Positions 11,249 to 56,887 of a stretch of DNA of 64,000 nt are shown here, piece by piece. The notes under the pieces were generated by a model. The model was not told where the DNA came from. It saw nothing but the letters and a program-made list of their open reading frames with translations, and did no database searches. Within the stretch, counting starts at the first letter, position 1. Every line of letters starts with the position of its first letter. Made by a program: the position numbers and the translations under genes. Source of the DNA: Dehalococcoidia bacterium (GTDB lineage Bacteria; Chloroflexota; Dehalococcoidia; Bin125). The DNA lies in NCBI GenBank assembly GCA_963663895.2, contig CAXXRD010000003.1:96001-160000 (forward strand). Direction: 5' to 3'.

Positions 11249-12061
11249 CTAGGGATCGGGGTCCGTAGGAGATCCACCGGTATCATTCACCTCTTCTTCA
11301 TCAAGAAGAGGGATGAGCAAGATCTGGCCAACATGGATGATGTCGAACTCACCGATCTCATTGGCTTCAATGATCGCGTCAACGGAAGAGCCGAGTGCAT
11401 CGGCGATGTCGTAGATCGTGTCCCCGGCAACAACCTCGTAGAGGACCGTGTTGGGCGTTTCGCGCGGTGCATTCACAACCTCGATAGGACGGGCGAGCCC
11501 TGGTTGGGGGTTGGTCGGTGCTTGGATGTCGATAGGATCGCGGCTGGGATCCGCCGTCTCGGCAGCGGGATCGACGGTCGCCGCAGGCTCAGGAACGGCT
11601 GACTTTTCGAAGTCGATGACTCTGGCGTCGGGCGGCTGCTCGGCGACGGGAAGAGGAGCCGTGCCATCTCCTTGTCCGCCGACGGCGTCGCCGATAAAGA
11701 TGATGAGGGCGAGCACGCCAATCGCGCCGGAGACCAAGGTGACATGCACGGAGTCTGGGAGGACCCAGCGACCGCTCCCGTCGGGTCCAGGCAGGCCCAG
11801 GTAAAGCAGGCGAGAACGACGGGAGGGATTGCCACTGCGGAATGGCGCCCCTCGGGGGCTATAGCCGCTCGAGGCGGGGACCACGATGGAATTGGGGACG
11901 GTAGCGGAGTCGATCCACCAGACGATGAGCGATACGAACAGGGTCAGGAGCCCCAACACGAGGAGCCAGATGCCCGATCCCGGCCAACCAATACCGAAGA
12001 TGAGGAGAAGGAGAAAAGCGCCAGTGGCAAGAAAGCCTGCGCTTTTGACGTCGAGGCGCAC
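11249..12061 (-). CDS. Membrane protein with C-terminal LysM domain
   Basis: Three TM segments; YEVVAGDTIYDIA...IIEANEI...IHVGQILLIP. Confidence 0.85.
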   Translation of the reverse strand: MRLDVKSAGFLATGAFLLLLIFGIGWPGSGIWLLVLGLLTLFVSLIVWWIDSATVPNSIVVPASSGYSPRGAPFRSGNPSRRSRLLYLGLPGPDGSGRWVLPDSVHVTLVSGAIGVLALIIFIGDAVGGQGDGTAPLPVAEQPPDARVIDFEKSAVPEPAATVDPAAETADPSRDPIDIQAPTNPQPGLARPIEVVNAPRETPNTVLYEVVAGDTIYDIADALGSSVDAIIEANEIGEFDIIHVGQILLIPLLDEEEVNDTGGSPTDPDP

Positions 12062-12150
12062 GAGCGGCCTCCAAAAGGGCCACCGCCACTATCATATAGT
12101 CTACTCAGCTCTCGCAAGCGCACAAGCGAGATCGCCGATCGGGGAAAGCG

Positions 12151-12495
12151 ATGCCGATCTTCATCGCGCTCGGACAGGTCACGAGCCAGGGCGCACAGAA
12201 CCACGACCATCTGATCGCACGACACGAGGAAGCGGTGAAGCGCGCCACACAACTCGGCGGGCGCGTGCTCAGCTCCTATGCCACGATGGGGCGCTATGAC
12301 TTCGTGGTGACGCTGGACTGCCCGAACATGGAGACGGCGATGCGCATTCTGACCCGGGAAGCCGCCGGCGGAAACATCCGCTATGAAACGATGGCCGCGA
12401 TGCCCACGCGTGACTTCGCGCAACTCTTTCTGGACAAGGCGGCTTTGGAAGAGGAGCATCGCGTGCTGCGCTCTGGCCGGCGCAAGCAATCTTAG
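12151..12495 (+). CDS. GYD-domain protein
   Basis: LGGRVLSSYATMGRYDFVV...GNIRYETMAA. Confidence 0.82.
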   Translation: MPIFIALGQVTSQGAQNHDHLIARHEEAVKRATQLGGRVLSSYATMGRYDFVVTLDCPNMETAMRILTREAAGGNIRYETMAAMPTRDFAQLFLDKAALEEEHRVLRSGRRKQS

Positions 12496-12648
12496 GACGC
12501 TGGGCGGCGATCCCTTGTCCTTGGCCGCCCCCGAGCAGGAACCACTGTTCCCATGGACCCGTTGCGCGCGCGGAGAGCAGTGGGGCACACTTTGTCCCGT
12601 CTGGTACTCTAGGCGAGCCTCGCAGGGGGCACTCCTCAGGACGAAACG

Positions 12649-13422
12649 GTGATCCGCGCAGTCTCTCGCCATCGCTATGCGATCCGCCTCGGACGGGAAG
12701 TCGCATTAGTCATGGTGGCGTATTGGGCTTACTACCTGGCACGGGCGCTCACAGCAGGCCGTGTCGAAGACGCCTTCGATAACGCCCACATCATCGTTTC
12801 AACTGAGCAAGCGCTGGGGATCTTTGTCGAATTACCTCTGCAGATCGCTCTGCTCGGCTACGACCTGATCGTGCACTTTTTCAGCCTTTGGTACTTCTGG
12901 GGTCATTTCCCATTGATCGCGCTGTTCGGCGTATGGACGTTATTCCGGCACGGGGACGATTACCGTTGGGCTCGCAACGCGATCTTCATTGCGGGAGCGC
13001 TGGCACTGATCGGGTATGCGGCATTCCCGGTCGCGCCGCCGCGGCTGCTGCCTGCAGCGGGCTTCGTCGACACGCTGGATTCGGCTTTCGTCCTGAAATA
13101 CAGCGACTCAACCCTCGTGAATCAGTTCGCGGCGGTACCCAGCATGCACTTCGGATTCGCGGTGATCATTGGAGCGGCGCTGTACCGCATCCTCGGCGGA
13201 CGGCGCGGGGCCGCAGCGGGGCTGCTCATCGCGTCGCTGATGCTGACCAGCATCATCGTGACCGGCAACCACTATTTCCTGGACGCGGTGCTGGGGCTGC
13301 CTCCGGCAATCGCGGGAATGATGCTCGCGACGCGGATCGAGCGCTACCGCTACATTCCCCGTCTTATGGCCTGCCTACAACGATCCCTCCTTGGGGAGAG
13401 AAGGCGCGCACTCCGCGTCTAA
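12649..13422 (+). CDS. PAP2_3 / AUR1 (inositol-phosphorylceramide synthase)-like membrane phosphotransferase
   Basis: FPVAPPRL, GFVDT, NQFAAVPSMHFG, TGNHYFLD. Confidence 0.82.
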   Translation: MIRAVSRHRYAIRLGREVALVMVAYWAYYLARALTAGRVEDAFDNAHIIVSTEQALGIFVELPLQIALLGYDLIVHFFSLWYFWGHFPLIALFGVWTLFRHGDDYRWARNAIFIAGALALIGYAAFPVAPPRLLPAAGFVDTLDSAFVLKYSDSTLVNQFAAVPSMHFGFAVIIGAALYRILGGRRGAAAGLLIASLMLTSIIVTGNHYFLDAVLGLPPAIAGMMLATRIERYRYIPRLMACLQRSLLGERRRALRV

Positions 13423-13571
13423 CCCCTCTGGGTAATCTTCCAAGAGCAGGTGGCTCGCTCGTCAATAGGCCGGATCGGCTTACACTACGTATGGAGCCGG
13501 CCCGCTCTCGCCCCTGTGGGCGCTCGCTGCGCTTGGCTGAGTCCAGAGGGATGGCAGGGGAGGCGCGAACC

Positions 13572-14849
13572 ATGACCACCGCCGACGACGCTCCGCCTCT
13601 CAACGAGGAGATAGCCAACCTGGCGCTCAATGAGATCGAGGGCCCGCAGAGCCGGTCCCAAAGCGCGGACGTCTTCGAGCGCTTCAAGGGTTTTCGTCTC
13701 GTCGAACAGGTCCGCGCCTTAGGCCTGTATCCCTTCTTCTTGCCGATCGAGGTGAACGAAGGACCCGAGGCCATTATCGACGGCAAGCGAGTCCTGATGC
13801 TGGGATCCAACAACTACCTGGGCCTCACGCGGCACCCCAAGGTCTTGGCGGCGGCCAAGGAGGCGCTAGAGCGGTACGGCCCATCAATGACGGGCTCGCG
13901 GCTGCTGAACGGCACCAGCGTTATCCACGAACAGCTCGAGGAGCGGATCGCTTCGTTCTTGGGATGGGAAGCGGCGCTGATCTGTACGACGGGCTATCAA
14001 GCGAACCTCTGTGTGATCTCCGCCCTCGTTGATCGCGGCGTGACGGCGGTGATCGATAAGATGGATCACGCCAGCATCTACGACGCGGCGGCGCTGGCGC
14101 TGGGCGAGTCGGTACGGTTCCGGCACAACGATGTCGCACATTTGGAGGAGGTGCTCCGGGGACTCCCGGAAACCGCAGGGCGGCTGGTCATCGTGGATGG
14201 GGTCTACTCCATGGGAGGCGACATCGCGCCGCTGCCCGAGATCGCTGCCGTATGTCAGCACTACAAGGCGCGGCTGGTGGTGGACGACGCGCACGCCATC
14301 GGAACCGTGGGGGAGCGTGGCACGGGAACACCCAGCCACTTCGGGATCACCGAGGGGGTCGATATCGTCGTCGGAACCTTTAGCAAGTCGCTCGCCTCAG
14401 TGGGCGGGTTTTGCGCCGGGCCGAAGTACGTGCTGGAGCACATCAAGCATTTCGCTCGCCCCATGATCTTCACGGCGGCCCCTCCCCCGGCTTCGGCGGC
14501 AGCGGCGCTGGCGGCGATCGAGTGCATCGAAGAGGAACCCTGGCGGGTCGCGCGTGTGAAGGAGATCGGAGCGCGGGTGCGCGTGGCTCTCCGCGAGATG
14601 GGCTTCAATATCGGTGCAACGGAGACACCGATCGTTCCGATCATCATCGGCAGCGAGCTCAAAACTGCGCTGTTCTGGCGAGATCTACTGGACAACGGGA
14701 TCTACACGAACGCGGTGGTCGTGCCGGCCGTACCGCGTGGCCAATCCTCGCTGCGGACATCGTACGTAGCGACGCATAGCGACGAACAGATCGAGAGCGC
14801 GCTGGAGCGGTTCGGCGAGCTGGCACGCAAACACGGAATCATCGATTAA
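13572..14849 (+). CDS. Alpha-oxoamine synthase, serine palmitoyltransferase-like
   Basis: GLYPFF...GKRVLMLGSNNYLGLT, DHASI, VDDAH, GTFSKSLAS (PLP Lys); GGAGG before ATG 13572 (alternative starts 13491, 13551). Confidence 0.82.
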   Translation: MTTADDAPPLNEEIANLALNEIEGPQSRSQSADVFERFKGFRLVEQVRALGLYPFFLPIEVNEGPEAIIDGKRVLMLGSNNYLGLTRHPKVLAAAKEALERYGPSMTGSRLLNGTSVIHEQLEERIASFLGWEAALICTTGYQANLCVISALVDRGVTAVIDKMDHASIYDAAALALGESVRFRHNDVAHLEEVLRGLPETAGRLVIVDGVYSMGGDIAPLPEIAAVCQHYKARLVVDDAHAIGTVGERGTGTPSHFGITEGVDIVVGTFSKSLASVGGFCAGPKYVLEHIKHFARPMIFTAAPPPASAAAALAAIECIEEEPWRVARVKEIGARVRVALREMGFNIGATETPIVPIIIGSELKTALFWRDLLDNGIYTNAVVVPAVPRGQSSLRTSYVATHSDEQIESALERFGELARKHGIID

Positions 14850-14867
14850 CGGCGAGCAGGTGGCTGA

Positions 14868-15839
14868 GTGCGAGTGCTACTGACCGGGGCCAGTGGATTC
14901 ATCGGCGCACATACGGCGCGCGCGCTCAGCGAGGCGGGACATACCGTTCGAGCGCTCGTGCGGCCGACGAGCGATCGCTCCGGCCTGGCGGACCTGCCAA
15001 TCGAATACGCGGTGGGGGACTTGATCGGGGCTGGCCTGGCGACTGCCTGTGGGGGAATGGACGCGGTTGTGCACCTGGCCGGCCTGACGCGAGCACGCAG
15101 TGAAGCGCACTTCATGCGCGTGAATGGAGAGGGCACGGCGCTGCTCGCGGAGGCCGCTGCGAACGCGGGTGTGCGCCGATTCGTGTACGTTTCCTCGATC
15201 GCGGCGCACGGGCCTGCTGCCCACGACCAGCCGCGCGACCCGTCGGAGCCAGCGCGGCCGGTCTCGCCCTACGGACGCTCGAAAGCGGCCGGAGAGACTG
15301 GAGCACTGGCACGCGCCGACCGGATGGCGGTGCAGGTGCTGCGGCCGCCGCTCGTCTACGGCCCGCGCGACAATGCGCTTCTCCCGTTCTTCCGCATGGC
15401 ACGGTGGCGGATAGTGCCGGTGATGGGCCGAGGCGAGAACCGTCTGTCGCTCATCCATGCACGGGACCTCGCGGAGAGCATCCGGGCATTGCTGGAGAGC
15501 GAACCGGCCCCGGCGGCCTGTTTTCACGCGGCAGGACCCGGGAAGCCCCAGAGTTGGCGCGAGTTGGTAGAAGCGCTGGGAGGGGCGTTGGAGCGCTCGG
15601 TGAACGTGCTGCCCATACCCGCGGCCGGGTTCGTGGGGGCGGCGCTGGTAGCGGAGTCCGGTGCGCGCCTGAGCAAGGGACCGCCGATACTGGATCGTGG
15701 CAAGGTCACCGAGATGCGGCAGCGCTGGATCTGCGATCACGCAGCCCTCACGGCGGCCACGGGCTGGGAGCCGCGCTGTGCACTCGAGGTGGGGCTACGG
15801 GAGACTGCCGCTTGGTACCGAGCGCACGGGTGGCTCTGA
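14868..15839 (+). CDS. NAD(P)-dependent epimerase/dehydratase (extended SDR), possible ketosphingoid/oxidised-ceramide reductase
   Basis: TGASGFIG, VVHLAGLT, YVSS, YGRSK, RPPLVYGPRD. Confidence 0.82.
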   Translation: MRVLLTGASGFIGAHTARALSEAGHTVRALVRPTSDRSGLADLPIEYAVGDLIGAGLATACGGMDAVVHLAGLTRARSEAHFMRVNGEGTALLAEAAANAGVRRFVYVSSIAAHGPAAHDQPRDPSEPARPVSPYGRSKAAGETGALARADRMAVQVLRPPLVYGPRDNALLPFFRMARWRIVPVMGRGENRLSLIHARDLAESIRALLESEPAPAACFHAAGPGKPQSWRELVEALGGALERSVNVLPIPAAGFVGAALVAESGARLSKGPPILDRGKVTEMRQRWICDHAALTAATGWEPRCALEVGLRETAAWYRAHGWL

Positions 15840-16433
15840 ATGCCGTCTGGGAACGAGCGGCCATTGCTGTCATTCGACCTCGACGGCGTGCTGGCGGCGC
15901 CACCGTTGGGCCGCAACTTCACGATCCAGCGGCGGCTGGATCTACCCTCGCACGCCCTGGCCACCAGAACGGCGCCCGAGCCGGACCCACGCCCTTCACT
16001 CCACGACCGGCTACTGATCCAAACCTACTTTCGGATACGGTACCGGGGCCGGGAGCCGATGCCCGGGGCGCAGGCAGCGGTCGCCGCCGCTGCGACCCGC
16101 TACCGGGTGATCGTGCTAACCGCGCGCAACTGGAGGGGCCGCAAAGCAACGGAAGCATGGCTGAGGCGACACGGGATCCTGGAGCATGTGGAGCGGGTCG
16201 TGCTCAATAACACCGCCCTTGCGTCAGCAAGGTTCAAGGAGCGCGTGGTCCAGCAGCTCGGAGTGACCCGCCACGTGGAGGACGACGCGGCGACGGCGGC
16301 CCTGGTGGCGCGAGCGGGAATAGCGGTTGATCTGATCGACTGGCCAGGGAATCGCGGGCTGGCCTTCCCGGAAAGAGTAACGCGTCGCGCGAACCTCGCG
16401 GCGCTGACGCGGCCGCTCACAGATGACTGCTAG
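15840..16433 (+). CDS. HAD-superfamily phosphatase-like protein
   Basis: FDLDGVL (motif I), LTAR (II), FK (III), HVEDD (IV); abuts the upstream stop. Confidence 0.72.
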   Translation: MPSGNERPLLSFDLDGVLAAPPLGRNFTIQRRLDLPSHALATRTAPEPDPRPSLHDRLLIQTYFRIRYRGREPMPGAQAAVAAAATRYRVIVLTARNWRGRKATEAWLRRHGILEHVERVVLNNTALASARFKERVVQQLGVTRHVEDDAATAALVARAGIAVDLIDWPGNRGLAFPERVTRRANLAALTRPLTDDC

Positions 16434-16441
16434 GTCGTGTC

Positions 16442-16807
16442 ATGGCTGATGATCGTGCATTTGCCGTGCAGGCGCCGCCCGAGGTGATCTGGCGATTACT
16501 ACGCCAAGAGGCGCAGGAGGGGGTGGAAAGTGGGCGGGCGAGAATTCTGCATCAGGAGGCGCCGCGCCGCATGGTGCTAACGGTCCAAATGGGGTGGGGA
16601 CTACAGATCGAGTACGAGTACGGGATCGCAGTGAAGGAAGACCATACCGAGGTGTCGTGTCGGGTACGGCCGCACGGACTGCGGCACCGGATGGCAAACC
16701 TGATCTCGTTCGGACGGGGGACGACGCCGTACCAACTCGCGTTGGCACAAGGATTGGCGAATCTGAAGCAGGAGGCAGAGAAGCTCGCGGCAAAGCCATC
16801 GGGCTGA
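16442..16807 (+). CDS. SRPBCC/START-like protein
   Basis: VQAPPEVIWRLL start and C-terminal GLANLKQEAE helix. Confidence 0.62.
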   Translation: MADDRAFAVQAPPEVIWRLLRQEAQEGVESGRARILHQEAPRRMVLTVQMGWGLQIEYEYGIAVKEDHTEVSCRVRPHGLRHRMANLISFGRGTTPYQLALAQGLANLKQEAEKLAAKPSG

Positions 16808-16853
16808 AACTGAGCGGGGCCGGCAGGGTTCGCAAGCGGTGTAGTCTTGGATC

Positions 16854-17984
16854 ATGGCCGCTGATGGGGCACGCGAGAGACTCAACCAAGCGCGCGTCGT
16901 CCCCTTGCGGCTCGTCAGTCAACCGCGTCCGTCATCTCGATCGCTCGCGGCACTCCTCAGCGAGCTGACCGCGGCCGGCGAGTTGGCCGAGGAGCTGCCC
17001 AAGAGCCGGTTGCGCTGCGTGGCCTGCGGACACCGCTGCCTGATCCCGCCCGGTGCGGTTGGCGTGTGCAAGGTGCGCTTCAACCAAGACGGCATGCTGC
17101 GAGTCCCTTTCGGCTACGTCGGCGCGTTACAGGTCGACCCGGTAGAGAAGAAGCCTTTCTTTCATTTTCTGCCTGGATCGACGGCGCTTTCGTTTGGCAT
17201 GCTGGGCTGCGACTTCCACTGTGGGTACTGTCAGAACTGGGTGACCTCGCAGGCGCTACGCGACCCGCAGGCACAGAGCTCCGCGATGCCGGTAAGTGCC
17301 GGACAGCTTGCGCGGTTGGCGCGAGAGCGGGGCAGCCAGCTCGTCGTGAGCACCTATAACGAGCCACTCATCACCTCGGAATGGGCAGTAGCGATCTTTC
17401 GAGAGGCGCGGGCCTTGGGACTGCGAACGGCCTATGTCTCCAATGGCAATGCGACCCCGGAAGTCCTCGACTACATCCGACCGTACGTCGATGCATACAA
17501 GGTTGATCTGAAGGCCATGCGTGACCGGTCGTATCGCAAGCTGGGCGGACTCTTGGAGCATGTGCGCTGGACAATCCGGGCCGTGCACGAGCGTGGATTC
17601 TGGCTGGAGGTTGTGACCCTCATCGTGCCGGGCTTTAACGACAGCGACGAAGAGCTGCGGGACGCGGCGGAATTCCTCGCGGGCGTGTCGCCGGAGATTC
17701 CCTGGCACGTGACTGCGTTCCATCCGGACTACAAAATGCTGGGGCCTGAACGAACGCCGGTAGACACCTTGCGGCGCGCGCAGCGGATCGGCCGGGACGC
17801 TGGCCTGCAGTACGTCTACTCCGGGAACCTACCGGGGCAAGTGGGCGAGACGGAGCACACCCGCTGTCCGCGGTGTGCCTCGACAGTCATTCAACGATAC
17901 GGGTTCCAAGTGATCGAACGGCGACTCATGGCGGACGGCGCCTGTCCAGACTGCGGCGCTGTGCTACCGGGGATCTGGTCCTAG
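16854..17984 (+). CDS. amrS: AmmeMemoRadiSam system radical SAM enzyme
   Basis: CVACGHRC, DPVEKKPFFHF, GCDFHCGYCQNW, TYNEP, WHVTAFHPDY, YVYSGN. Confidence 0.92.
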   Translation: MAADGARERLNQARVVPLRLVSQPRPSSRSLAALLSELTAAGELAEELPKSRLRCVACGHRCLIPPGAVGVCKVRFNQDGMLRVPFGYVGALQVDPVEKKPFFHFLPGSTALSFGMLGCDFHCGYCQNWVTSQALRDPQAQSSAMPVSAGQLARLARERGSQLVVSTYNEPLITSEWAVAIFREARALGLRTAYVSNGNATPEVLDYIRPYVDAYKVDLKAMRDRSYRKLGGLLEHVRWTIRAVHERGFWLEVVTLIVPGFNDSDEELRDAAEFLAGVSPEIPWHVTAFHPDYKMLGPERTPVDTLRRAQRIGRDAGLQYVYSGNLPGQVGETEHTRCPRCASTVIQRYGFQVIERRLMADGACPDCGAVLPGIWS

Positions 17985-18032
17985 CTACCCTAGCGTCTGT
18001 CCGATCTGCGTGAGGACGCTTCGAGGCGGCCG

Positions 18033-18419
18033 CTAGTGGCGCCGGAAAGCACGGATCGTGCGCGTGATCCAGAAGACCGTCCAGCCTGCGAGAAGCAGCG
18101 AGGCGATCGTGATGCGCGTGCTGTCCACAACCTGATGGACTCGGAATTCGGTAGCAGTGACCTCGAGCGTCGCGACGGGACGAGCCTGGGCGCCCCCGCC
18201 CCCGCCGCCCCCGCCGCTGCGGTCCTCATCCGGTGCATCGCCCCAACCTCCGCCGAAGCCGTAGCCAGTCGAGACGGAGGCAAGGGGAACGATCAGCCGG
18301 CCTTCCACCTGCTGCACTGGTCCTACGACCGCGTCGGCGCTGGCGACTCCCGCCAGTCGCGAGACATGACGGCCGATCTTGCCGACGTGGTCAGTGTCCT
18401 GGTCCACCTCTTGCGTCAT
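18033..18419 (-). CDS. YtfJ/GerW-like protein with C-terminal membrane anchor
   Basis: VVGPVQQVEGRLIVPLASVSTGYGFGGG...GGGGGGGAQARPVA. Confidence 0.78.
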   Translation of the reverse strand: MTQEVDQDTDHVGKIGRHVSRLAGVASADAVVGPVQQVEGRLIVPLASVSTGYGFGGGWGDAPDEDRSGGGGGGGGAQARPVATLEVTATEFRVHQVVDSTRITIASLLLAGWTVFWITRTIRAFRRH

Positions 18420-18808: not shown

Positions 18809-19519
18809 CTAGCGAAAGCCCGGAAAGGGAAAGCGCCAACCAGGGAAACGGTCGTCGCGGCTGTCAGCGGGTAGAGCCCACTGTTCAAGCACGAAGATCA
18901 AGGGGATGCCGATCACGGCCGTCCAAACAAAGCCCCCGAAGGTGTCCGATGGCCAATGCACGCCCGCCGAGATCGAAGCCCAGGGTTGGAGAAGGCCCAC
19001 ACCAGCACCCCAGGCCGCGATCGGAGCGCGCAGCCAGAGCGGTCCCGGGATGCGCCAGCAAAGATAAACGACCACGACGCCGACCATCATGCTGCTCATG
19101 ACGTGGCCGCTGGGAAAGCTTGGGGAATCGAAGCTGCCGTGCTGCTCAAGGAACAGAATCGAGGTACGAGGCCGGTCGACGAGCAGCTTGATCCCGTGCT
19201 GGAGGCCGAATCCAATTGCAAAGCAGCCGCTAACGAGGGCAGTGCGGCGGCGTCCGAGCGCAAGGAGAACAATCACGGCGAGGATGAGCGTGATCGCAGA
19301 GGCCGGTGTGGAGCCGACGTCGCGCAAGAACTGGGAGAGCGCGCGACCAGGGAGATCATTCGCTTGAATCCACCGGCCGACGGCAGCATCGCCGGGAAAG
19401 CGGTCGTCGATAGCCGCCCACACCGACAGCGCGATCGCGCCGCTGAGCAGTGCCAGCCAGATGGCGGCGAGCCAGGTGCCACCGCCCAACCGGTGAACCG
19501 GACCGAAGTCGCAGCGCAT
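18809..19519 (-). CDS. PAP2-family phosphatase (undecaprenyl-PP/lipid phosphatase-like)
   Basis: KLLVDRPR, SFPSGH, AGVHWPSD; multiple TM helices. Confidence 0.85.
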   Translation of the reverse strand: MRCDFGPVHRLGGGTWLAAIWLALLSGAIALSVWAAIDDRFPGDAAVGRWIQANDLPGRALSQFLRDVGSTPASAITLILAVIVLLALGRRRTALVSGCFAIGFGLQHGIKLLVDRPRTSILFLEQHGSFDSPSFPSGHVMSSMMVGVVVVYLCWRIPGPLWLRAPIAAWGAGVGLLQPWASISAGVHWPSDTFGGFVWTAVIGIPLIFVLEQWALPADSRDDRFPGWRFPFPGFR

Positions 19520-33510: not shown

Positions 33511-33800
33511 CGCAACGCTCTCTCGTCCGGTCGCCCATCGCGGGCTGCGGGCCAGTACGACCCCGCGCGCTCTGGCGCCCCATTCTAGGGGCGGCGGCGG
33601 GATGCGGCAGTGCCAGGGCGCGGTTCACCGGGCGGGCGCAGTGCGCGGCAGCGTTGACCGCTTGCCGCAGGGAGGATTGTTGCAGCGTGGGGAAGCGGCG
33701 CCTCGCGGTACGCTGCGTTGACAGGGCAGTGCGCGGTCGCGATATTGACCGCTGGTGAGGCTTTTCTATCACCCTTCTATCATGCTGAGGAGGTCGCTGG

Positions 33801-34121
33801 ATGGGTAAGTATTTGCTGCAGGCGAGCTACACGCAGGAAGGTCTCGCTGGTTTGAGCAAGGAGGGGGGAACGAGCCGAAGGGCGGCTCTGACGGAGACCA
33901 TTGGGGGCGTGGGTGGCAGCTTGGAGTCGTTCTACTACGCCTTCGGCAAGGACGATCTCTTCATCATCGCCGATCTGCCCGACGACGCAGCGGCGACGGC
34001 CGTATCCCTCGCCCTCGGTGCCGCCGGCGCCCTCACGGTCAGTGTCACGGTGCTGATCACCGCGGAGACCGTGGACGAGGCCATCGCCAAGAGCGTGCCC
34101 TACCGTCCTCCCGGATCCTGA
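33801..34121 (+). CDS. GYD-domain protein
   Basis: YLLQASYT.EG..G, GGSLESFYYAFGKDD, YRPPG; GAGGAGG RBS. Confidence 0.88.
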   Translation: MGKYLLQASYTQEGLAGLSKEGGTSRRAALTETIGGVGGSLESFYYAFGKDDLFIIADLPDDAAATAVSLALGAAGALTVSVTVLITAETVDEAIAKSVPYRPPGS

Positions 34122-39836: not shown

Positions 39837-41169
39837 ATGTCGAATCCGCGCAACCGCTGGCGGCTGTTGCTCCTGGCTCCGATCACGCTGCTCGCTATCG
39901 CCGGCTTCGCGCTGGGGATCGGCGTCAAGGGGCTGCTGGACGGCGACGCCTCGGCGACGGGCTCGGTGCGCGCTTTGCGAGGCGGCGGCTCCGGCCCGGC
40001 GGTGATCGACTTCCAAGCGAACGAAGAGCGCGAATCGCGCTTCGGGTTGCTGGACGAGGTCTACGACATCCTCAGCCGTGAGTTCGTGGAGCCGGACCGG
40101 GTCGAGCTGGGAGGGCTGCGGACGGCGGCGATCAACGGCGCCGTCGGCGCGCTCAACGACCCGCACTCGGTCTACATCGACCGCGAGACCTTCCACCTCA
40201 GCAGCGAGAGCATCAGCGGGCAGTTCGAGGGGATCGGCGCGACCGTCGATCAGCAAAGCGAGGGGATCTTCATCACGGGGACCTTCCGCGGCTCGCCGGC
40301 CGAGGCGGCCGGCATCCGCAGCGGCGACGTGATCCTGGCGGTGGACGGAGAATCGACCGCGGGCTGGTCGGTGCAGTTCGCGGTGGCGCGCATCCGCGGC
40401 CACGCCGGCACGGACGTGGTGCTGACGGTGCGGCACCGCACGGGCCAAGTGGAGGATATTACGGTCACGCGCGGCGTGATCGTGATCCCGAGCGTGCAAG
40501 CGATTCAGGTGCAGGACGCCGCCGGCCTCGCCGTCGAGGACCTCGCCTATATCGCCATCTCGCAGTTCACGGAGAACACCCGCGAGGAGTTGGTGGCGGT
40601 GCTGGAGGGCGCGCGGGCGGCCCAGGTGGAGGGGCTCATCATCGACTTGCGCGGCAACCCGGGCGGGCTGCTCACGGCGACGGTGGAGGTGACGGGCGAG
40701 TTCCTGGACGGCGGCGTGGTGCTGACGGAGGTCAACCGCCAACGGCGATGAGCAGGCCTTCAACGACCAGCCCGGGGGCGCCGCCCTCGATATCCCCCTC
40801 GTAGTTCTCGTGAACGGCGGCTCGGCCTCCGGCTCGGAGGTGTTCGCGGCGGCCCTGCGGGACTACGGGCGAGCCGTTGTCCTGGGCGAGCAGACGCTGG
40901 GCAAGGGGACGGTCAGCATCCCCCGTCACCTCTCCGACGGCAGCGTGCTCTACGTGAGCACGGCGCGCTGGCTCACGCCCGACGGCGAACTGATCGAGGG
41001 GGTCGGCTTGATCCCGGACTTCATCATCGAGCCTTCAGACATCGACTTCGAGCAGCGGCGCGACGTGCAGCTCTTCGCGGCGATCAACTACCTGCGCGGC
41101 CTGCCGATCGAGACGTCACTGACCGCGCCCCAAGGGGTGGCCCAGGATCCGGAGCGCACGGATCCCTAA
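39837..41169 (+). CDS. S41 carboxyl-terminal processing protease; frameshift near 40740
   Basis: LNDPHS.Y, FEGIG, PDZ, IDLRGNPGG, then VNGGSASGSE and GKGTV in the shifted frame. Confidence 0.9.
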
Positions 41170-41310
41170 ACCGGCGTGCCCCCGGCGGCCCGTGACGCGC
41201 GCCGGCGGCGCCAACGCCTGCGAGAGGCGGGGCGGACGCGCCCGCTGTAACCGGCAGGAGACTTGAGCGCATCCTGTCCAGGGCGCTCTGCCGGTCGTAG
41301 ACTGACGCCG

Positions 41311-41841
41311 ATGGCGAGGAGCAAGTCGAAGCGGAAGGGGCGGGCGCGGGACGGCGCCGGGGGCGGGGAGGCGGACGCCGCCGCCAAAGCGGCGGCGAAC
41401 TTCCGAACGATCGCGCGCAACAAGCGCGCCACCTTCAACTACGCCATCCTGGAGCGCTTCGAGACGGGGCTGGCGCTGACCGGGACCGAGATCAAGGCGA
41501 TCCGTGAAGGCAAGGCGAGCATCGCGGAGGCCTACGTGCGTCCACGCGCCCGCGAGCTCTGGTTGGTGGGGGCGACGATCGCCCGCTACGAGGCGGCCAG
41601 CCACGGCAACCACGACCCCACCCGGGACCGCAAGCTGCTGCTGCATCGCCGGGAGATCCGGGCGCTCACGGAGGGGGCGGAGCAGAAGGGACTGACGATC
41701 GTTCCGATCCACCTTTACCTCAAGCGTGGGCTGGCAAAGCTGGAGATCGGGCTGGGGCGGGGCAAGCGGCAGTACGACAAGCGGCAGGCGATCGCCAAAC
41801 GGGAGGCGGAGCGACGGATGCGGCAGAGCGTGCGCCAGTAG
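41311..41841 (+). CDS. smpB: SsrA-binding protein
   Basis: NKRATFNY, GLALTGTEIKAIR, RKLLLHRREI, GKRQYDKR; adjacent to tmRNA. Confidence 0.96.
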   Translation: MARSKSKRKGRARDGAGGGEADAAAKAAANFRTIARNKRATFNYAILERFETGLALTGTEIKAIREGKASIAEAYVRPRARELWLVGATIARYEAASHGNHDPTRDRKLLLHRREIRALTEGAEQKGLTIVPIHLYLKRGLAKLEIGLGRGKRQYDKRQAIAKREAERRMRQSVRQ

Positions 41842-41882
41842 CCGCGGCTGGCGAGAGGCGGCCCTATACTGGGACGGTGAAA

Positions 41883-42240
41883 GGGGACGAAAGGACTCGA
41901 CAGCGATCGGTTGATCGGTTTTGCGTGCCGAGGTGCCGTGCCCTCGTAAAACTGCGGCAGTTAAAATAACTGGCGAGAAAGAACTCGCTCTCGCTGCCTA
42001 ACTAGGCGGTGAGCGTTCCCCACCGCGCTCGGCCGGACGGCCGGTGGCGGGGCGTCAATCAGTCCGGCTGCTCGGTCTCTGATGCCGGGAAGAGACCGCT
42101 AAGACAAACTCCGGCTGGTCCAGGGGCCAGCCCGTCGGGCGACGGGCCTCGGGGCGAGACACCAAGCCCGACTACGCGCGTAGCAGATACCGGCGGCTCA
42201 TCGTCTGGACGGGGAGTTCGATTCTCCCCCGTCTCCACCA
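41883..42240 (+). ncRNA. ssrA: tmRNA; tag (A)GEKELALAA at 41972..42001
   Basis: 5' GGGGACG pairs with 3' CGTCTCC-ACCA (G3.U); T-arm GTTCGATT; ATAACT resume context; TATACT -10 at 41865. Confidence 0.95.
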
Positions 42241-53718: not shown

Positions 53719-55073
53719 CTAAGAGGTTTTCGCCGCCTTCGGTAGGGCCACGTCCTGGTCGATGGGATCACCCTTCACGGCGAACTGCTGCTGCTCCGTG
53801 GAGCCAGTAAGAGCTGTGGTGGAGCTCTGGCCCTTGGTCACCGCCTCAAGGATACGGTCGAAATAGCCGGTGCCGACTTCACGCTGATGGCGGGTGGCGC
53901 TGTAGCCGGCGGGCTCCGCCTCGAACTCCCGCTGCTGCAGATCGACATAGGCGCTCATACCGCGAGCGGTGTAGTCGTTCGCGAGTTCGAAGCTGTTGAG
54001 GTTGAGAACGTGCCAACCGGCCAGCGTGATGAACTGGAACTTGTAACCCAGCCCCCCCAGATCGCGCTGGAAGGCGTTGATGGCATCGCTATCGAGGTGG
54101 GCGTTCCAATTGAAGGAAGGGGAGCAGTTGTAGGCGAGCCATTTACCCGGATAGCGTTCGTGGATCGCGGTAGCGAAGTGCCGGGCCTGTTCGAGGTCGG
54201 GCGTAGAGGATTCGAACCAGAGGAGATCCGCGTAGGGAGCGTAGGCCAGCGAGCGGGCGATCGCGGACTCAATGCCCCCTTCGACCACGAAGTAGCCCTC
54301 GGGGGTACGGCTGCCGCCGATGAACGGGTGGTCGCGGGGATCGATGTCGGAGGTGAGAAGCGTCGCGCTGACGGCGTCAGTACGCGCCACGACCACCGTG
54401 GGAACGTCAAGCACGTCCGCGGCGAGGCGGGAGGCGATGAGCGTGCGGATGTGCTGGGCGGTGGGCACGAGCACTTTACCGCCGAGATGGCCACATTTCT
54501 TCTCGGCGGCGAGTTGGTCCTCGAAGTGCACGGCGGCGGCGGCCGCCTCGATCATCGCCTCCGTGAGTTCGAAGGCATGGAGGGGGCCACCGAAGCCCGC
54601 CTCTGCATCGGCGACGATCGGGGCGAACCAATCGCGCGAGTGGCGCCCCTCCGCCCGCTCGACCTGATCGGCGCGCTACAGGGCATTGTTAATACGCCGC
54701 ACTAAGGCGGGCGCACTGTTGACGGGATAAAGGCTCTGATCGGGGTAGGTCTGGCCAGCCAGGTTGGCGTCGGCGGCGACTTGCCAACCGCTGAGGTAGA
54801 TGGCGTCGAGGCCAGCGCGCACCATCTGCACTGCCTGGGCGCCGCTGAGCGCCCCGAAGGTGTGTAGATAGAGCCGCTCCTGGAAGAGCGCGCGCAGGCG
54901 CTCGGCGCCGTGGCGCGCGAGGGAGTGCTCAATAGGGATGGAAGGGCGCAGGCGCAGGACGTCGGCGGTCGTGTAGTCACGCCGCACCGCGAGCTCCTGC
55001 GCTTCCTCTGTCCAGCGGCGTTCGAGCGCGGCGATAGCATCCGTGCGATCGGTTTCGATTGTGGTAATGGAGG

Positions 55074-55077
<4 letters not shown>
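53719..55077 (-). CDS. aceA: Isocitrate lyase with in-frame TAG at 54678-54676
   Basis: [64 protein letters not shown], all in one frame. Confidence 0.92.
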
Positions 55078-56708
<1,631 letters not shown>

Positions 56709-56887
56709 GATCGAACTCGATTCACGGTTTAGGGCGTTGCTTGGGACATCTTGGCAATGCAGAAAGCCTAGCAACGCAGCGGTCGCGGTCTATACAAGCA
56801 GACACAAGTGGCAGGTAATGCCAGCGCAGCGTCTCTCCCAGCGGCCGCATCGGCGACCCGACGCAGGCAAAGCCGGGCGCAGACGCC

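What the first reader, a model, noticed from the sequence alone, without database searches (positions are those of the whole stretch)
12649..16807. Candidate sphingolipid biosynthesis cluster in a probable Chloroflexota genome
Seen: co-oriented AUR1/IPC-synthase-like phosphotransferase, alpha-oxoamine synthase with SPT-type GLYPFF and GTFSKS motifs, extended SDR, HAD phosphatase and START-like protein; no bio genes nearby. Known: bacterial ceramide synthesis uses Spt, a GNAT-like ceramide synthase and an SDR reductase, and AUR1-type enzymes add phospho-head groups. Inference: a route to phospho-headgroup sphingolipids or related long-chain lipids in a phylum not well known for them. No ceramide synthase gene is visible in the cluster.
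Basis: partly seen in the sequence, partly recalled or inferred. Interest (0 to 1): 0.7.

Follow-up and report, generated by a model that had tools for sequence, protein, structure and literature searches.

The report
Sphingolipid-type lipid operon variant in Chloroflexota
Five co-oriented genes in a probable Chloroflexota genome look like a lineage-specific version of the bacterial sphingolipid pathway that lacks the usual neighbouring ceramide synthase gene, in a phylum already reported to carry such genes.

Summary
Window 12649-16807 (+) carries five tightly spaced genes:
- a PAP2_3 membrane protein with AUR1-type catalytic motifs;
- an alpha-oxoamine synthase (AOS);
- an extended SDR;
- a HAD-fold phosphatase;
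- a 121-aa SRPBCC/START-fold protein.

The AOS scores higher against serine palmitoyltransferase (SPT) models and SPT structures than against BioF, Kbl, ALAS or CqsA. It is 31-32% identical to E. coli BioF and Kbl. It nests in a well-supported clade whose other members usually have a GNAT-like (bCerS-like) gene and a homologous SDR beside them.

The window belongs to a separate Chloroflexota subclade of 59 of the 136 AOS sequences treed. AOS-SDR-HAD-SRPBCC is conserved in the five closest genome loci. The HAD and SRPBCC families occur nowhere else among the 80 loci. No bCerS-like gene lies in the 64-kb window or in those five loci. PAP2_3 shares contigs with the AOS in the nearer relatives.

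Best reading: a variant long-chain-base (sphingoid) lipid pathway with a phospho-head-group transferase. Whether and how the base is N-acylated stays open.

Spt-like genes in Chloroflexota are already in print (218 MAGs, Ding et al. 2024). This is therefore a new variant of a known kind, of moderate interest.

The parts
12649..13422 (+). PAP2_3-family integral membrane protein (257 aa), AUR1/IPC-synthase-like candidate phospho-head-group transferase
   Evidence: Pfam PF14378, 134.9 bits. The motifs FPVAPPR (126), PSMH (164) and NHYFLD (207) are present. S165, H167, H208 and D212 are invariant in 24 of 24 homologues. A profile search of the PDB finds only AUR1 chains, weakly (E 0.029), aligned over PSxH and HYxxD; FPxAPP appears only in a separate segment HMMER scored negative (-3.6 bits). 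NCBIfam PI-DHC synthase scores only 21.4 bits against a cut-off of 480. Kyte-Doolittle windows overlap into about six hydrophobic regions.
13572..14849 (+). Spt-like alpha-oxoamine synthase (425 aa; alternative start at 13551)
   Evidence: NCBIfam SPT-CFB 456 bits > SPT-betaP 399 > bioF 372 > Kbl 338, all below their cut-offs. Best PDB matches are SPT entries 8guh/3a2b at 371 bits; KBL scores 239 and BioF 207. Identity is 32% to E. coli Kbl, 31% to E. coli BioF, and 50% to Myxococcota and Gemmatimonadota homologues that have a GNAT-like neighbour. Trees.
14868..15839 (+). Extended SDR (323 aa), candidate 3-keto reductase (CerR-like)
   Evidence: Pfam Epimerase, 3Beta_HSD and NmrA. GxxGxxG and YxxxK are present. 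Homologues at 28-50% identity lie within 3 kb of the AOS in 34 of 80 loci, and 25 of those loci also hold the GNAT-like gene.
15840..16433 (+). HAD-superfamily phosphatase-like protein (197 aa)
   Evidence: Motifs I (DxDGV), II (T), III (K) and IV (DDD) are invariant in 6 of 6 orthologues. AlphaFold pLDDT is 80.4. Foldseek matches HAD hydrolases at TM about 0.5-0.6. The ESM Atlas gives NT5C-type neighbours as a lead only. The HMM hits only the window and L001-L005 among 81 sources.
16442..16807 (+). 121-aa SRPBCC/START-fold protein of a small, unnamed family
   Evidence: No Pfam or NCBIfam hit. Only 23 representatives at E<=1e-3 among 1.84 billion proteins. AlphaFold pLDDT is 90.7. Foldseek matches polyketide cyclases, PYR1, CoxG and START proteins at TM 0.43-0.67 among the top ten. 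The HMM hits only the window and L001-L005.

Best explanation
This is a Chloroflexota-specific variant of the bacterial sphingolipid (long-chain-base) pathway.

Inferred steps, none of them shown:
1. The Spt-like AOS condenses L-serine, or a close analogue, with a long-chain acyl-CoA or acyl-ACP to give a 3-keto long-chain base.
2. The adjacent cytoplasmic extended SDR reduces the 3-keto group.
3. The AUR1-like PAP2_3 membrane enzyme transfers a phospho-head group from a glycerophospholipid donor to the 1-hydroxyl of the base or of its N-acyl derivative.

The HAD phosphatase and the small SRPBCC lipid-binding protein are specific to this subclade. In the five relatives their reading frames overlap by 4-8 nt. 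I take them as accessory proteins: a phosphatase acting on a phosphorylated precursor or intermediate, and a carrier for the hydrophobic base. Their substrates are unknown.

The N-acyl step (bCerS) is either encoded elsewhere in the genome or absent. In the second case the product would be a lyso-type sphingoid lipid.

What is shown: gene identities, motifs, folds, phylogenetic placement and conserved order. What is inferred: all chemistry.
For: AOS is nearer to SPT than to other AOS classes:
- NCBIfam SPT-CFB 456 bits against bioF 372 and Kbl 338.
- PDB SPT entries 371, 299 and 280 bits, against KBL 239, cysteate acyltransferase 233, BioF 207, ALAS 197 and CqsA 136.

Phylogeny:
- In an 83-row tree rooted on E. 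coli BioF and Kbl, the window plus L001-L005 form a clade (SH-aLRT 99).
- That clade sits inside a 27-row clade (98) in which 10 rows have a GNAT-like gene in the locus. Those rows are Chloroflexota, Acidobacteriota, Myxococcota and Gemmatimonadota.

Synteny:
- 28 of 80 loci hold a GNAT-like gene of about 390 aa, usually in the order AOS-GNAT-SDR.
- 34 of 80 hold an SDR homologue within 3 kb.
- The order AOS-SDR-HAD-SRPBCC is conserved in L001-L005.

PAP2_3 link:
- PAP2_3 genes lie beside the AOS cluster in 9 other loci from Gemmatimonadota, Nitrospirota and Thermodesulfobacteriota.
- 11 AOS relatives at 65-95% identity share the longest-contig length of a PAP2_3 orthologue. Three of these contigs are only 26.9, 39.9 and 43.2 kb long.
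- The catalytic motifs PSxH and HYxxD align with AUR1.
- An AUR1 homologue (BT_1522) is needed for phosphoinositol dihydroceramide in Bacteroides (passages of PMC9246714).

A glycosyltransferase occupies the same slot in another Chloroflexota locus, L076. This shows that head-group enzymes do join this gene pair.
Against: - No bCerS-like gene lies in the 64-kb window or in L001-L005. Ceramide itself is therefore not accounted for.
- The AOS is below every curated SPT cut-off: 456 against 640, 399 against 500, and 328 against 670.
- One non-SPT entry named AONS/KBL (8s1y) scores as high as one group of SPT structures, at 280 bits.
- My trees hold no biochemically characterised SPT.
- The sister relation to the GNAT-bearing Chloroflexota clade is weakly supported (SH-aLRT 80).
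- PAP2_3 is missing from the five closest genome loci. It is separated from the AOS by 128-149 nt. It matches AUR1 only at E 0.029 and the Bacteroides PI-DHC synthase model at 21 bits. PAP2-family proteins can also be plain phosphatases.
- No inositol-phosphate synthase or CDP-alcohol transferase was seen among the 67 window ORFs scanned.
- One AOS of the window's clade (P0009) shares a 2,966-bp contig length with a GNAT-like protein. This may be coincidence. If it is real, bCerS linkage exists inside the clade.
Confidence: 0.5

Rival explanations
1. The AOS has drifted to another amino-acid or acyl substrate after losing the bCerS neighbour. Together with the SDR, HAD and SRPBCC proteins it would make a non-sphingolipid long-chain amino-ketone or amino-alcohol: a 1-deoxy base, a sulfonolipid-like or phospho-amino-acid-derived base, or a CqsA-type signal.
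For: The window's clade is set apart by a long, fully supported branch (59 rows, support 100). Within the 81 sources searched, it alone carries HAD and SRPBCC partners and it lacks GNAT-like neighbours. The AOS is below all SPT equivalog cut-offs. AOS enzymes of other specificity, cysteate acyltransferase and AONS/KBL, still score 233-280 bits. A phosphatase in the operon would fit a phosphorylated substrate; this last point is inference.
Against: The SPT models and structures are the best matches. The SPT-clade motifs are kept. The SDR partner is the same family as in GNAT-bearing clusters. An AUR1-like transferase is linked in the nearer relatives.
Confidence: 0.25
2. Only AOS-SDR-HAD-SRPBCC is a functional unit. 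The PAP2_3 gene is an unrelated neighbour, for example a lipid-phosphate phosphatase of envelope metabolism, and adds no head group to the AOS product.
For: PAP2_3 is absent from L001-L005, where the AOS follows the LysM gene directly. The gap before the AOS is 128-149 nt, against 0-18 nt inside the core. Similarity to AUR1 (E 0.029) and to the PI-DHC synthase model (21 bits) is weak. Contig-length matches on megabase contigs show only the same genome and not adjacency.
Against: Three of the matches are on contigs of 27-43 kb and one on a 3,068-bp contig. The matches are spread over the base of the 59-row clade, so the link looks ancestral, with one loss. PAP2_3 genes also flank AOS-GNAT-SDR clusters in 9 loci of three other phyla. 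The residues shared with AUR1 are the catalytic ones.
Confidence: 0.2
3. The AOS is an ordinary BioF (biotin) or Kbl (threonine breakdown) enzyme, and the neighbours are coincidental.
For: Some public annotations call its homologues 8-amino-7-oxononanoate synthase. The bioF model scores 372 bits.
Against: That bioF score is below its cut-off of 426 and below two SPT models. Identity to E. coli BioF and Kbl is 31-32%, and both are far outgroups. No bioA/B/D/C and no tdh were found among the 67 ORFs scanned. The AOS has conserved linkage to a lipid-type SDR.
Confidence: 0.03

Closest known systems
Bacterial ceramide pathway Spt - bCerS - CerR (Caulobacter crescentus model; passages of PMC11087976 and PMC11324152 seen; the founding paper, Stankeviciute et al. 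2022, not held)
   Same: It has an SPT-type AOS followed by an NAD-binding extended SDR of the epimerase/NDUFA9-like kind. Homologous AOS and SDR genes sit with a GNAT-like acyltransferase in 25 of 80 related loci.
   Different: No bCerS-like gene lies in the window or in the five closest loci. No dedicated ACP or acyl-ACP synthetase lies beside it. The SDR starts directly with its Rossmann motif and so has no signal peptide, whereas Caulobacter CerR is reported to be periplasmic. The HAD and SRPBCC genes are extra.
Spt-like 'clade B' proteins of environmental bacteria, including 218 Chloroflexota MAGs (Ding et al. 2024, PMC11334938, passages)
   Same: The phylum is the same and the argument is the same: phylogenetic clustering plus co-localised CerR and bCerS. 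That paper also notes Spt-like genes without bCerS or CerR nearby.
   Different: I could not place the window in their tree, and their supplements were not consulted. The passages I read do not mention the HAD/SRPBCC/PAP2_3 operon form.
AUR1 (fungal IPC synthase) and Bacteroides BT_1522 phosphoinositol-dihydroceramide synthase (PMC9246714, passages)
   Same: It belongs to the same Pfam family, PAP2_3. It shares the PSxH and HYxxD motifs (FPxAPP lines up only in a segment HMMER scored negative). BT_1522 shows that bacteria use this family for sphingolipid head groups.
   Different: Similarity is very weak: E 0.029 to AUR1, and 21 bits against a cut-off of 480 for the BT_1522 model. The protein is shorter (257 aa against 401-449 aa for the AUR1 chains). 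No inositol-lipid genes were seen nearby. Donor and acceptor are unknown.
Solved bacterial SPT, PDB 3a2b/8guh (organism recalled as Sphingobacterium multivorum)
   Same: The match is full-length (residues 35-417 against 7-389) at 371 bits, with PLP-lysine motif GTFSKS identical.
   Different: The window protein has about 28 extra N-terminal residues and falls below the NCBIfam cut-off of that SPT type (456 against 640).

Membership tests
Serine palmitoyltransferase (bacterial Spt, alpha-oxoamine synthase family) | Fold-type I AOS with a PLP-binding lysine and the His/Asp PLP contacts | tested here: met
   Aminotran_1_2, E 5e-57. HASI (166), DDAH (238) and GTFSKS (268) are present and invariant in 24 of 24 homologues.
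Serine palmitoyltransferase (bacterial Spt, alpha-oxoamine synthase family) | Reaches a curated SPT equivalog cut-off (NCBIfam) | tested here: not met
   SPT-CFB 456.1 against 640, SPT-betaP 398.7 against 500, SPT-alphaP 327.8 against 670. These models are lineage-specific.
Serine palmitoyltransferase (bacterial Spt, alpha-oxoamine synthase family) | Closer to characterised SPT than to BioF, Kbl, ALAS or CqsA | tested here: met
   The SPT models rank first and second. The SPT structures rank first to third. E. coli BioF and Kbl are distant outgroups at 31-32% identity.
Serine palmitoyltransferase (bacterial Spt, alpha-oxoamine synthase family) | Condenses L-serine with long-chain acyl-CoA/ACP to give 3-ketodihydrosphingosine | not testable with these tools
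   Needs an enzyme assay or heterologous expression with LC-MS.
Bacterial ceramide gene set (Spt + bCerS + CerR) | CerR-type reductase linked to Spt | tested here: inconclusive
   The SDR is 36-50% identical to SDRs in AOS-GNAT-SDR loci. No Caulobacter CerR sequence was available for direct comparison.
Bacterial ceramide gene set (Spt + bCerS + CerR) | bCerS (GNAT-like N-acyltransferase) present | tested here: not met
   An HMM of six GNAT-like neighbours finds no hit at E<=1e-3 in any six-frame ORF of the 64-kb window or of L001-L005, but finds hits in 28 of 80 loci. The rest of the genome could not be searched. That the GNAT-like family is bCerS is itself inferred from position.
AUR1 / IPC-synthase-type PAP2_3 phosphotransferases | Pfam PAP2_3 above the gathering score | tested here: met
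   134.9 bits against 27.
AUR1 / IPC-synthase-type PAP2_3 phosphotransferases | Catalytic Ser-x-His and His-x3-Asp motifs | tested here: met
   S165, H167, H208 and D212 are invariant in 24 of 24 homologues and align with PSLH and HYFVD of AUR1.
AUR1 / IPC-synthase-type PAP2_3 phosphotransferases | Significant overall similarity to a characterised IPC or PI-DHC synthase | tested here: inconclusive
   The profile matches AUR1 chains at E 0.029-0.035. The NCBIfam PI-DHC synthase model gives 21.4 bits against 480.
AUR1 / IPC-synthase-type PAP2_3 phosphotransferases | Transfers a phospho-head group to ceramide or a sphingoid base instead of hydrolysing | not testable with these tools
   Needs an activity assay.
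HAD-superfamily phosphatase | Motifs I-IV and a Rossmannoid HAD fold | tested here: met
   D13, D15, T94, K133, D148 and D149 are invariant in 6 of 6 orthologues. The model matches HAD hydrolases at probability 1.0 and TM about 0.5-0.6. Pfam hits are below cut-off.
SRPBCC / START / Bet v 1 fold | Helix-grip fold with a long C-terminal helix over a beta-sheet | tested here: met
   The model has pLDDT 90.7 and element order beta-alpha-beta5-alpha-alpha. Nearly all of the listed Foldseek matches are SRPBCC-type proteins; the top ten have E 3e-4 to 7e-4 and TM 0.43-0.67. There is no sequence-family match.

The most novel reading that the evidence does not exclude
The 59-row Chloroflexota AOS clade marks a bCerS-independent lipid route. 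In it a HAD phosphatase and a minimal SRPBCC carrier have taken the place of the ceramide synthase. The products would be non-acylated or unconventionally acylated phospho-sphingoid lipids, or sphingoid-base phosphates, made by single-membrane bacteria. The AUR1-like enzyme would then act on a free long-chain base and not on ceramide.
Probability: 0.2. Interest if true: 0.7.

Novelty: new variant of a known kind. Interest (0 to 1): 0.4.

Why it matters
Chloroflexota are abundant in sediments, soils and other habitats, and environmental lipidomics has begun to assign sphingolipids to them from gene presence alone. This operon form separates a large Chloroflexota subclade from the canonical Spt-bCerS-CerR arrangement. 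It names three untested partner proteins: an AUR1-like transferase, a HAD phosphatase and a START-fold protein. If the partners are functional, the products and head groups may differ from ordinary ceramides. That would affect how Spt-like genes are read as markers of 'sphingolipid producers'. It would also give concrete candidates for expression and lipid analysis.

Tried and rejected
- **BioF/Kbl reading.** Rejected.
- **Looking for a bCerS elsewhere in genomes of the window's clade.** I matched longest-contig lengths between the AOS hit list and a GNAT-like hit list. The list shows only the best 120 hits, all at least 63% identical to the L006 protein, so a divergent copy could not appear. 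Inconclusive.
- **The listing of cluster members for names of the nearest relatives.** The database was switched off.
- **Stankeviciute et al. 2022 (PMC8891067).** Not held. What I say about bCerS and CerR rests on passages in PMC11087976, PMC11324152 and PMC11334938.
- **PDB search with the GNAT-like protein.** Nothing meaningful was found.
- **Promoter and terminator scan of 11900-18100.** It found 0 promoter-like sites and 1 terminator-like site, inside the GYD gene. Uninformative.
- **Rfam and tRNA scans.** They gave only the tmRNA.
- **Ideas from memory, left untested.** These were a link to the long-chain 1,2-diol lipids of Thermomicrobia; the HAD as a phosphoserine phosphatase feeding the AOS; and the HAD removing a terminal phosphate after transfer of a phosphorylated head group. 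The last idea is weakened because L001-L005 keep the HAD without PAP2_3.
- **Literature searches.** Searches returned no paper describing an Spt-like gene with HAD, START-fold and PAP2_3 partners in Chloroflexota. These are narrow word searches and not proof of absence.

Full report
**The genes.** ORF listing shows five co-oriented genes on the + strand that fill 12649-16807 exactly. The gaps between them are 149 nt (128 nt if the AOS starts at 13551), 18, 0 and 8 nt.

Pfam and NCBIfam give the following:
- PAP2_3 (PF14378, 134.9 bits) for 12649-13422.
- A class I/II aminotransferase of the alpha-oxoamine synthase (AOS) type for 13572-14849.
- An NAD-dependent epimerase-type extended SDR for 14868-15839.
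- Only sub-threshold HAD-type matches for 15840-16433.
- Nothing for 16442-16807.

The last two genes were settled by structure. In the HAD-like protein, motifs I-IV are invariant in 6 of 6 orthologues. Its AlphaFold model (pLDDT 80.4 from a 6-sequence alignment) matches HAD hydrolases. The 121-aa protein belongs to a very small family, with 23 representatives at E<=1e-3 among 1.84 billion proteins. Its model (pLDDT 90.7) matches SRPBCC/START/polyketide-cyclase folds.

**Is the AOS an SPT?** The NCBIfam bit scores, with cut-offs in brackets, rank as follows:

| Model | Bits | Cut-off |
|---|---|---|
| SPT-CFB | 456 | 640 |
| SPT-betaP | 399 | 500 |
| bioF | 372 | 426 |
| BioF/Kbl family | 342 | 535.4 |
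| Kbl | 338 | 460 |
| SPT-alphaP | 328 | 670 |

No equivalog cut-off is reached.

Against the PDB the scores are:
- SPT entries 8guh/3a2b, 371 bits over the full length.
- A second SPT, 299 bits.
- An entry named AONS/KBL and a further SPT group, about 280 bits each.
- KBL, 239 bits.
- Cysteate-C-fatty acyltransferase, 233 bits.
- BioF, 207 bits.
- ALAS, 197 bits.
- CqsA, 136 bits.

In an alignment with E. coli BioF and Kbl taken from the K-12 record, the window protein is 31-32% identical to them. It is 50% identical to Myxococcota and Gemmatimonadota homologues. No bio genes or tdh were found among the 67 window ORFs scanned.

**Relatives and gene order.** The protein search found close homologues at 99% down to 56% identity. 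The few that carry names are called Chloroflexi or Dehalococcoidia MAG proteins.

One scan of genome contigs with an alignment of 24 of these kept 80 loci out of at least 594 matches. Local tblastn and HMM searches over all six-frame ORFs of these loci and the window show:
- An SDR homologue lies within 3 kb of the AOS in 34 of 80 loci.
- A GNAT-like gene of about 390 aa lies in 28 of 80 loci, usually as AOS-GNAT-SDR. Pfam Acetyltransf_1 is weak or absent on it, and it has no NCBIfam model.
- 25 loci have both the SDR and the GNAT-like gene.
- The HAD and the SRPBCC families occur only in the window and in L001-L005, always in the order AOS-SDR-HAD-SRPBCC.
- In those five loci the last two reading frames overlap by 4-8 nt.
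- In the loci checked (L001-L003, L005) a LysM gene sits upstream on the other strand, as it does in the window.
- The window and L001-L005 have no GNAT-like hit at all.

I take the GNAT-like gene to be the bacterial ceramide synthase (bCerS) because of its position. The literature says that Spt, bCerS (an acyltransferase) and CerR (a reductase) are often clustered. I could not compare it with a characterised bCerS.

**Trees.** An 83-row tree (IQ-TREE quick search, E. coli BioF and Kbl as outgroup) puts the window with L001-L005 (SH-aLRT 99). That group sits inside a 27-row clade (98) that also holds the following:
- Chloroflexota with the GNAT-like gene (L006-L009, L011).
- An Acidobacteriota locus.
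- Myxococcota, including three Sorangium genomes.
- Two Gemmatimonadota loci.

The sister relation to the GNAT-bearing Chloroflexota is weak (80).

A 136-row FastTree built with the 120 protein hits resolves three Chloroflexota clades. The window's clade has 59 rows (support 100). This tree has no characterised SPT in it, so it shows descent from a bCerS-linked lineage and does not show enzyme activity.

**The PAP2_3 gene.** Its homologues keep S165, H167, H208 and D212 in 24 of 24 aligned sequences. A profile of them finds only AUR1 chains in the PDB. The match is weak (E 0.029) but lines up PSxH with PSLH and HYxxD with HYFVD. FPxAPP lines up only in a separate segment that HMMER scored negative (-3.6 bits). 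The NCBIfam model of the Bacteroides phosphoinositol-dihydroceramide synthase gives only 21 bits.

L001-L005 have no PAP2_3 gene in their 21 kb. However, 11 AOS hits at 65-95% identity share their longest-contig length with a PAP2_3 orthologue. Seven of these contigs are 0.17-3.4 Mb long and so show only the same genome. Three are 26.9, 39.9 and 43.2 kb long. One is 3,068 bp long, a length short enough to coincide by chance.

On the tree these 11 rows lie over the base of the 59-row clade. A nested 25-row subclade that holds L001-L005 has none. The simplest reading is an ancestral link with one loss.

PAP2_3-family genes also sit beside AOS-GNAT-SDR clusters in 9 loci of Gemmatimonadota, Nitrospirota and Thermodesulfobacteriota. 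In one further Chloroflexota locus, L076, an MGDG-synthase-like glycosyltransferase lies between the AOS and the SDR. Head-group enzymes thus join this gene pair repeatedly.

**Mechanism.** The best-supported account is a long-chain-base pathway:
1. The Spt-like enzyme condenses serine with an acyl thioester.
2. The SDR reduces the 3-keto group.
3. The AUR1-like enzyme transfers a phospho-head group.

The N-acyl step is the gap. It may be encoded elsewhere, which I could not test, or it may be missing. The HAD and the SRPBCC protein are a coupled pair specific to this clade. Their substrates are unknown, and a phosphatase plus a lipid carrier is the most I can say. All chemistry here is inference.

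**Comparison with what is known.**
- Spt-like proteins in Chloroflexota are in print. Ding et al. 2024 report 218 Chloroflexota MAGs, and they note Spt-like genes without bCerS or CerR nearby (passages). A 2025 paper repeats this (passages).
- A bacterial AUR1 homologue for sphingolipid head groups is known in Bacteroides. A HAD hydrolase is proposed in an alternative inositol-lipid cluster there (passages of PMC9246714).
- The Caulobacter model places bCerS before CerR, with CerR in the periplasm (passages). Here the SDR has no signal peptide.

What I did not find in print is this operon form, with HAD, START-fold and PAP2_3 partners and no bCerS. I did not read the supplements of these papers, and their trees may already contain this clade.

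**Verdict.** This is a new variant of a known kind, of moderate interest (0.4).

**Left unchecked.**
- The rest of this genome and the contigs of its nearest relatives.
- Any direct comparison with characterised bCerS, CerR or SPT sequences other than through PDB and NCBIfam scores.
- Names of the nearest relatives.

Noticed in passing
window 53719-55119 (-): The isocitrate lyase reading frame is cut by an in-frame TAG near 54673-54675. Both halves match Pfam ICL, and the junction reads NNAL*RADQV. It lies next to malate synthase at 55074-56789 (-). It could be a pseudogene, a sequencing error or read-through; this was not resolved.
   Followed up: partly
window 39837-41169 (+): A PDZ/Peptidase_S41 (CtpA-like) protease is split over two overlapping frames, 39837-40751 and 40726-41169. 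This looks like a frameshift.
   Followed up: no
window 18809-19519 (-): A second PAP2 gene lies 2 kb downstream of the cluster on the other strand. It is classic PF01569 and not PAP2_3, with a weak match to undecaprenyl-diphosphatase models.
   Followed up: no
window 12151-12495 (+) and 33789-34121 (+): There are two GYD-domain genes. The first lies 153 nt upstream of the PAP2_3 gene.
   Followed up: no
window 16854-17984 (+): An AmmeMemoRadiSam-type radical SAM gene (TIGR04337, 282 bits against a cut-off of 220) starts 46 nt after the cluster. It is not conserved there in L001-L003, where a DUF4015 gene follows instead.
   Followed up: partly
L076 9421-10647: In another Chloroflexota MAG an MGDG-synthase-like glycosyltransferase lies between the AOS and the SDR, where other lineages have the GNAT-like gene.
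   Followed up: partly
window 11249-12061 (-); L001 8924-9781, L002 9012-10013, L003 8955-9827, L005 8993-9826 (-): A LysM-domain protein is the conserved upstream neighbour of the AOS block, on the opposite strand.
   Followed up: partly
window 41251-42240 (+): SmpB is followed directly by the tmRNA gene, with tag peptide GEKELALAA.
   Followed up: no
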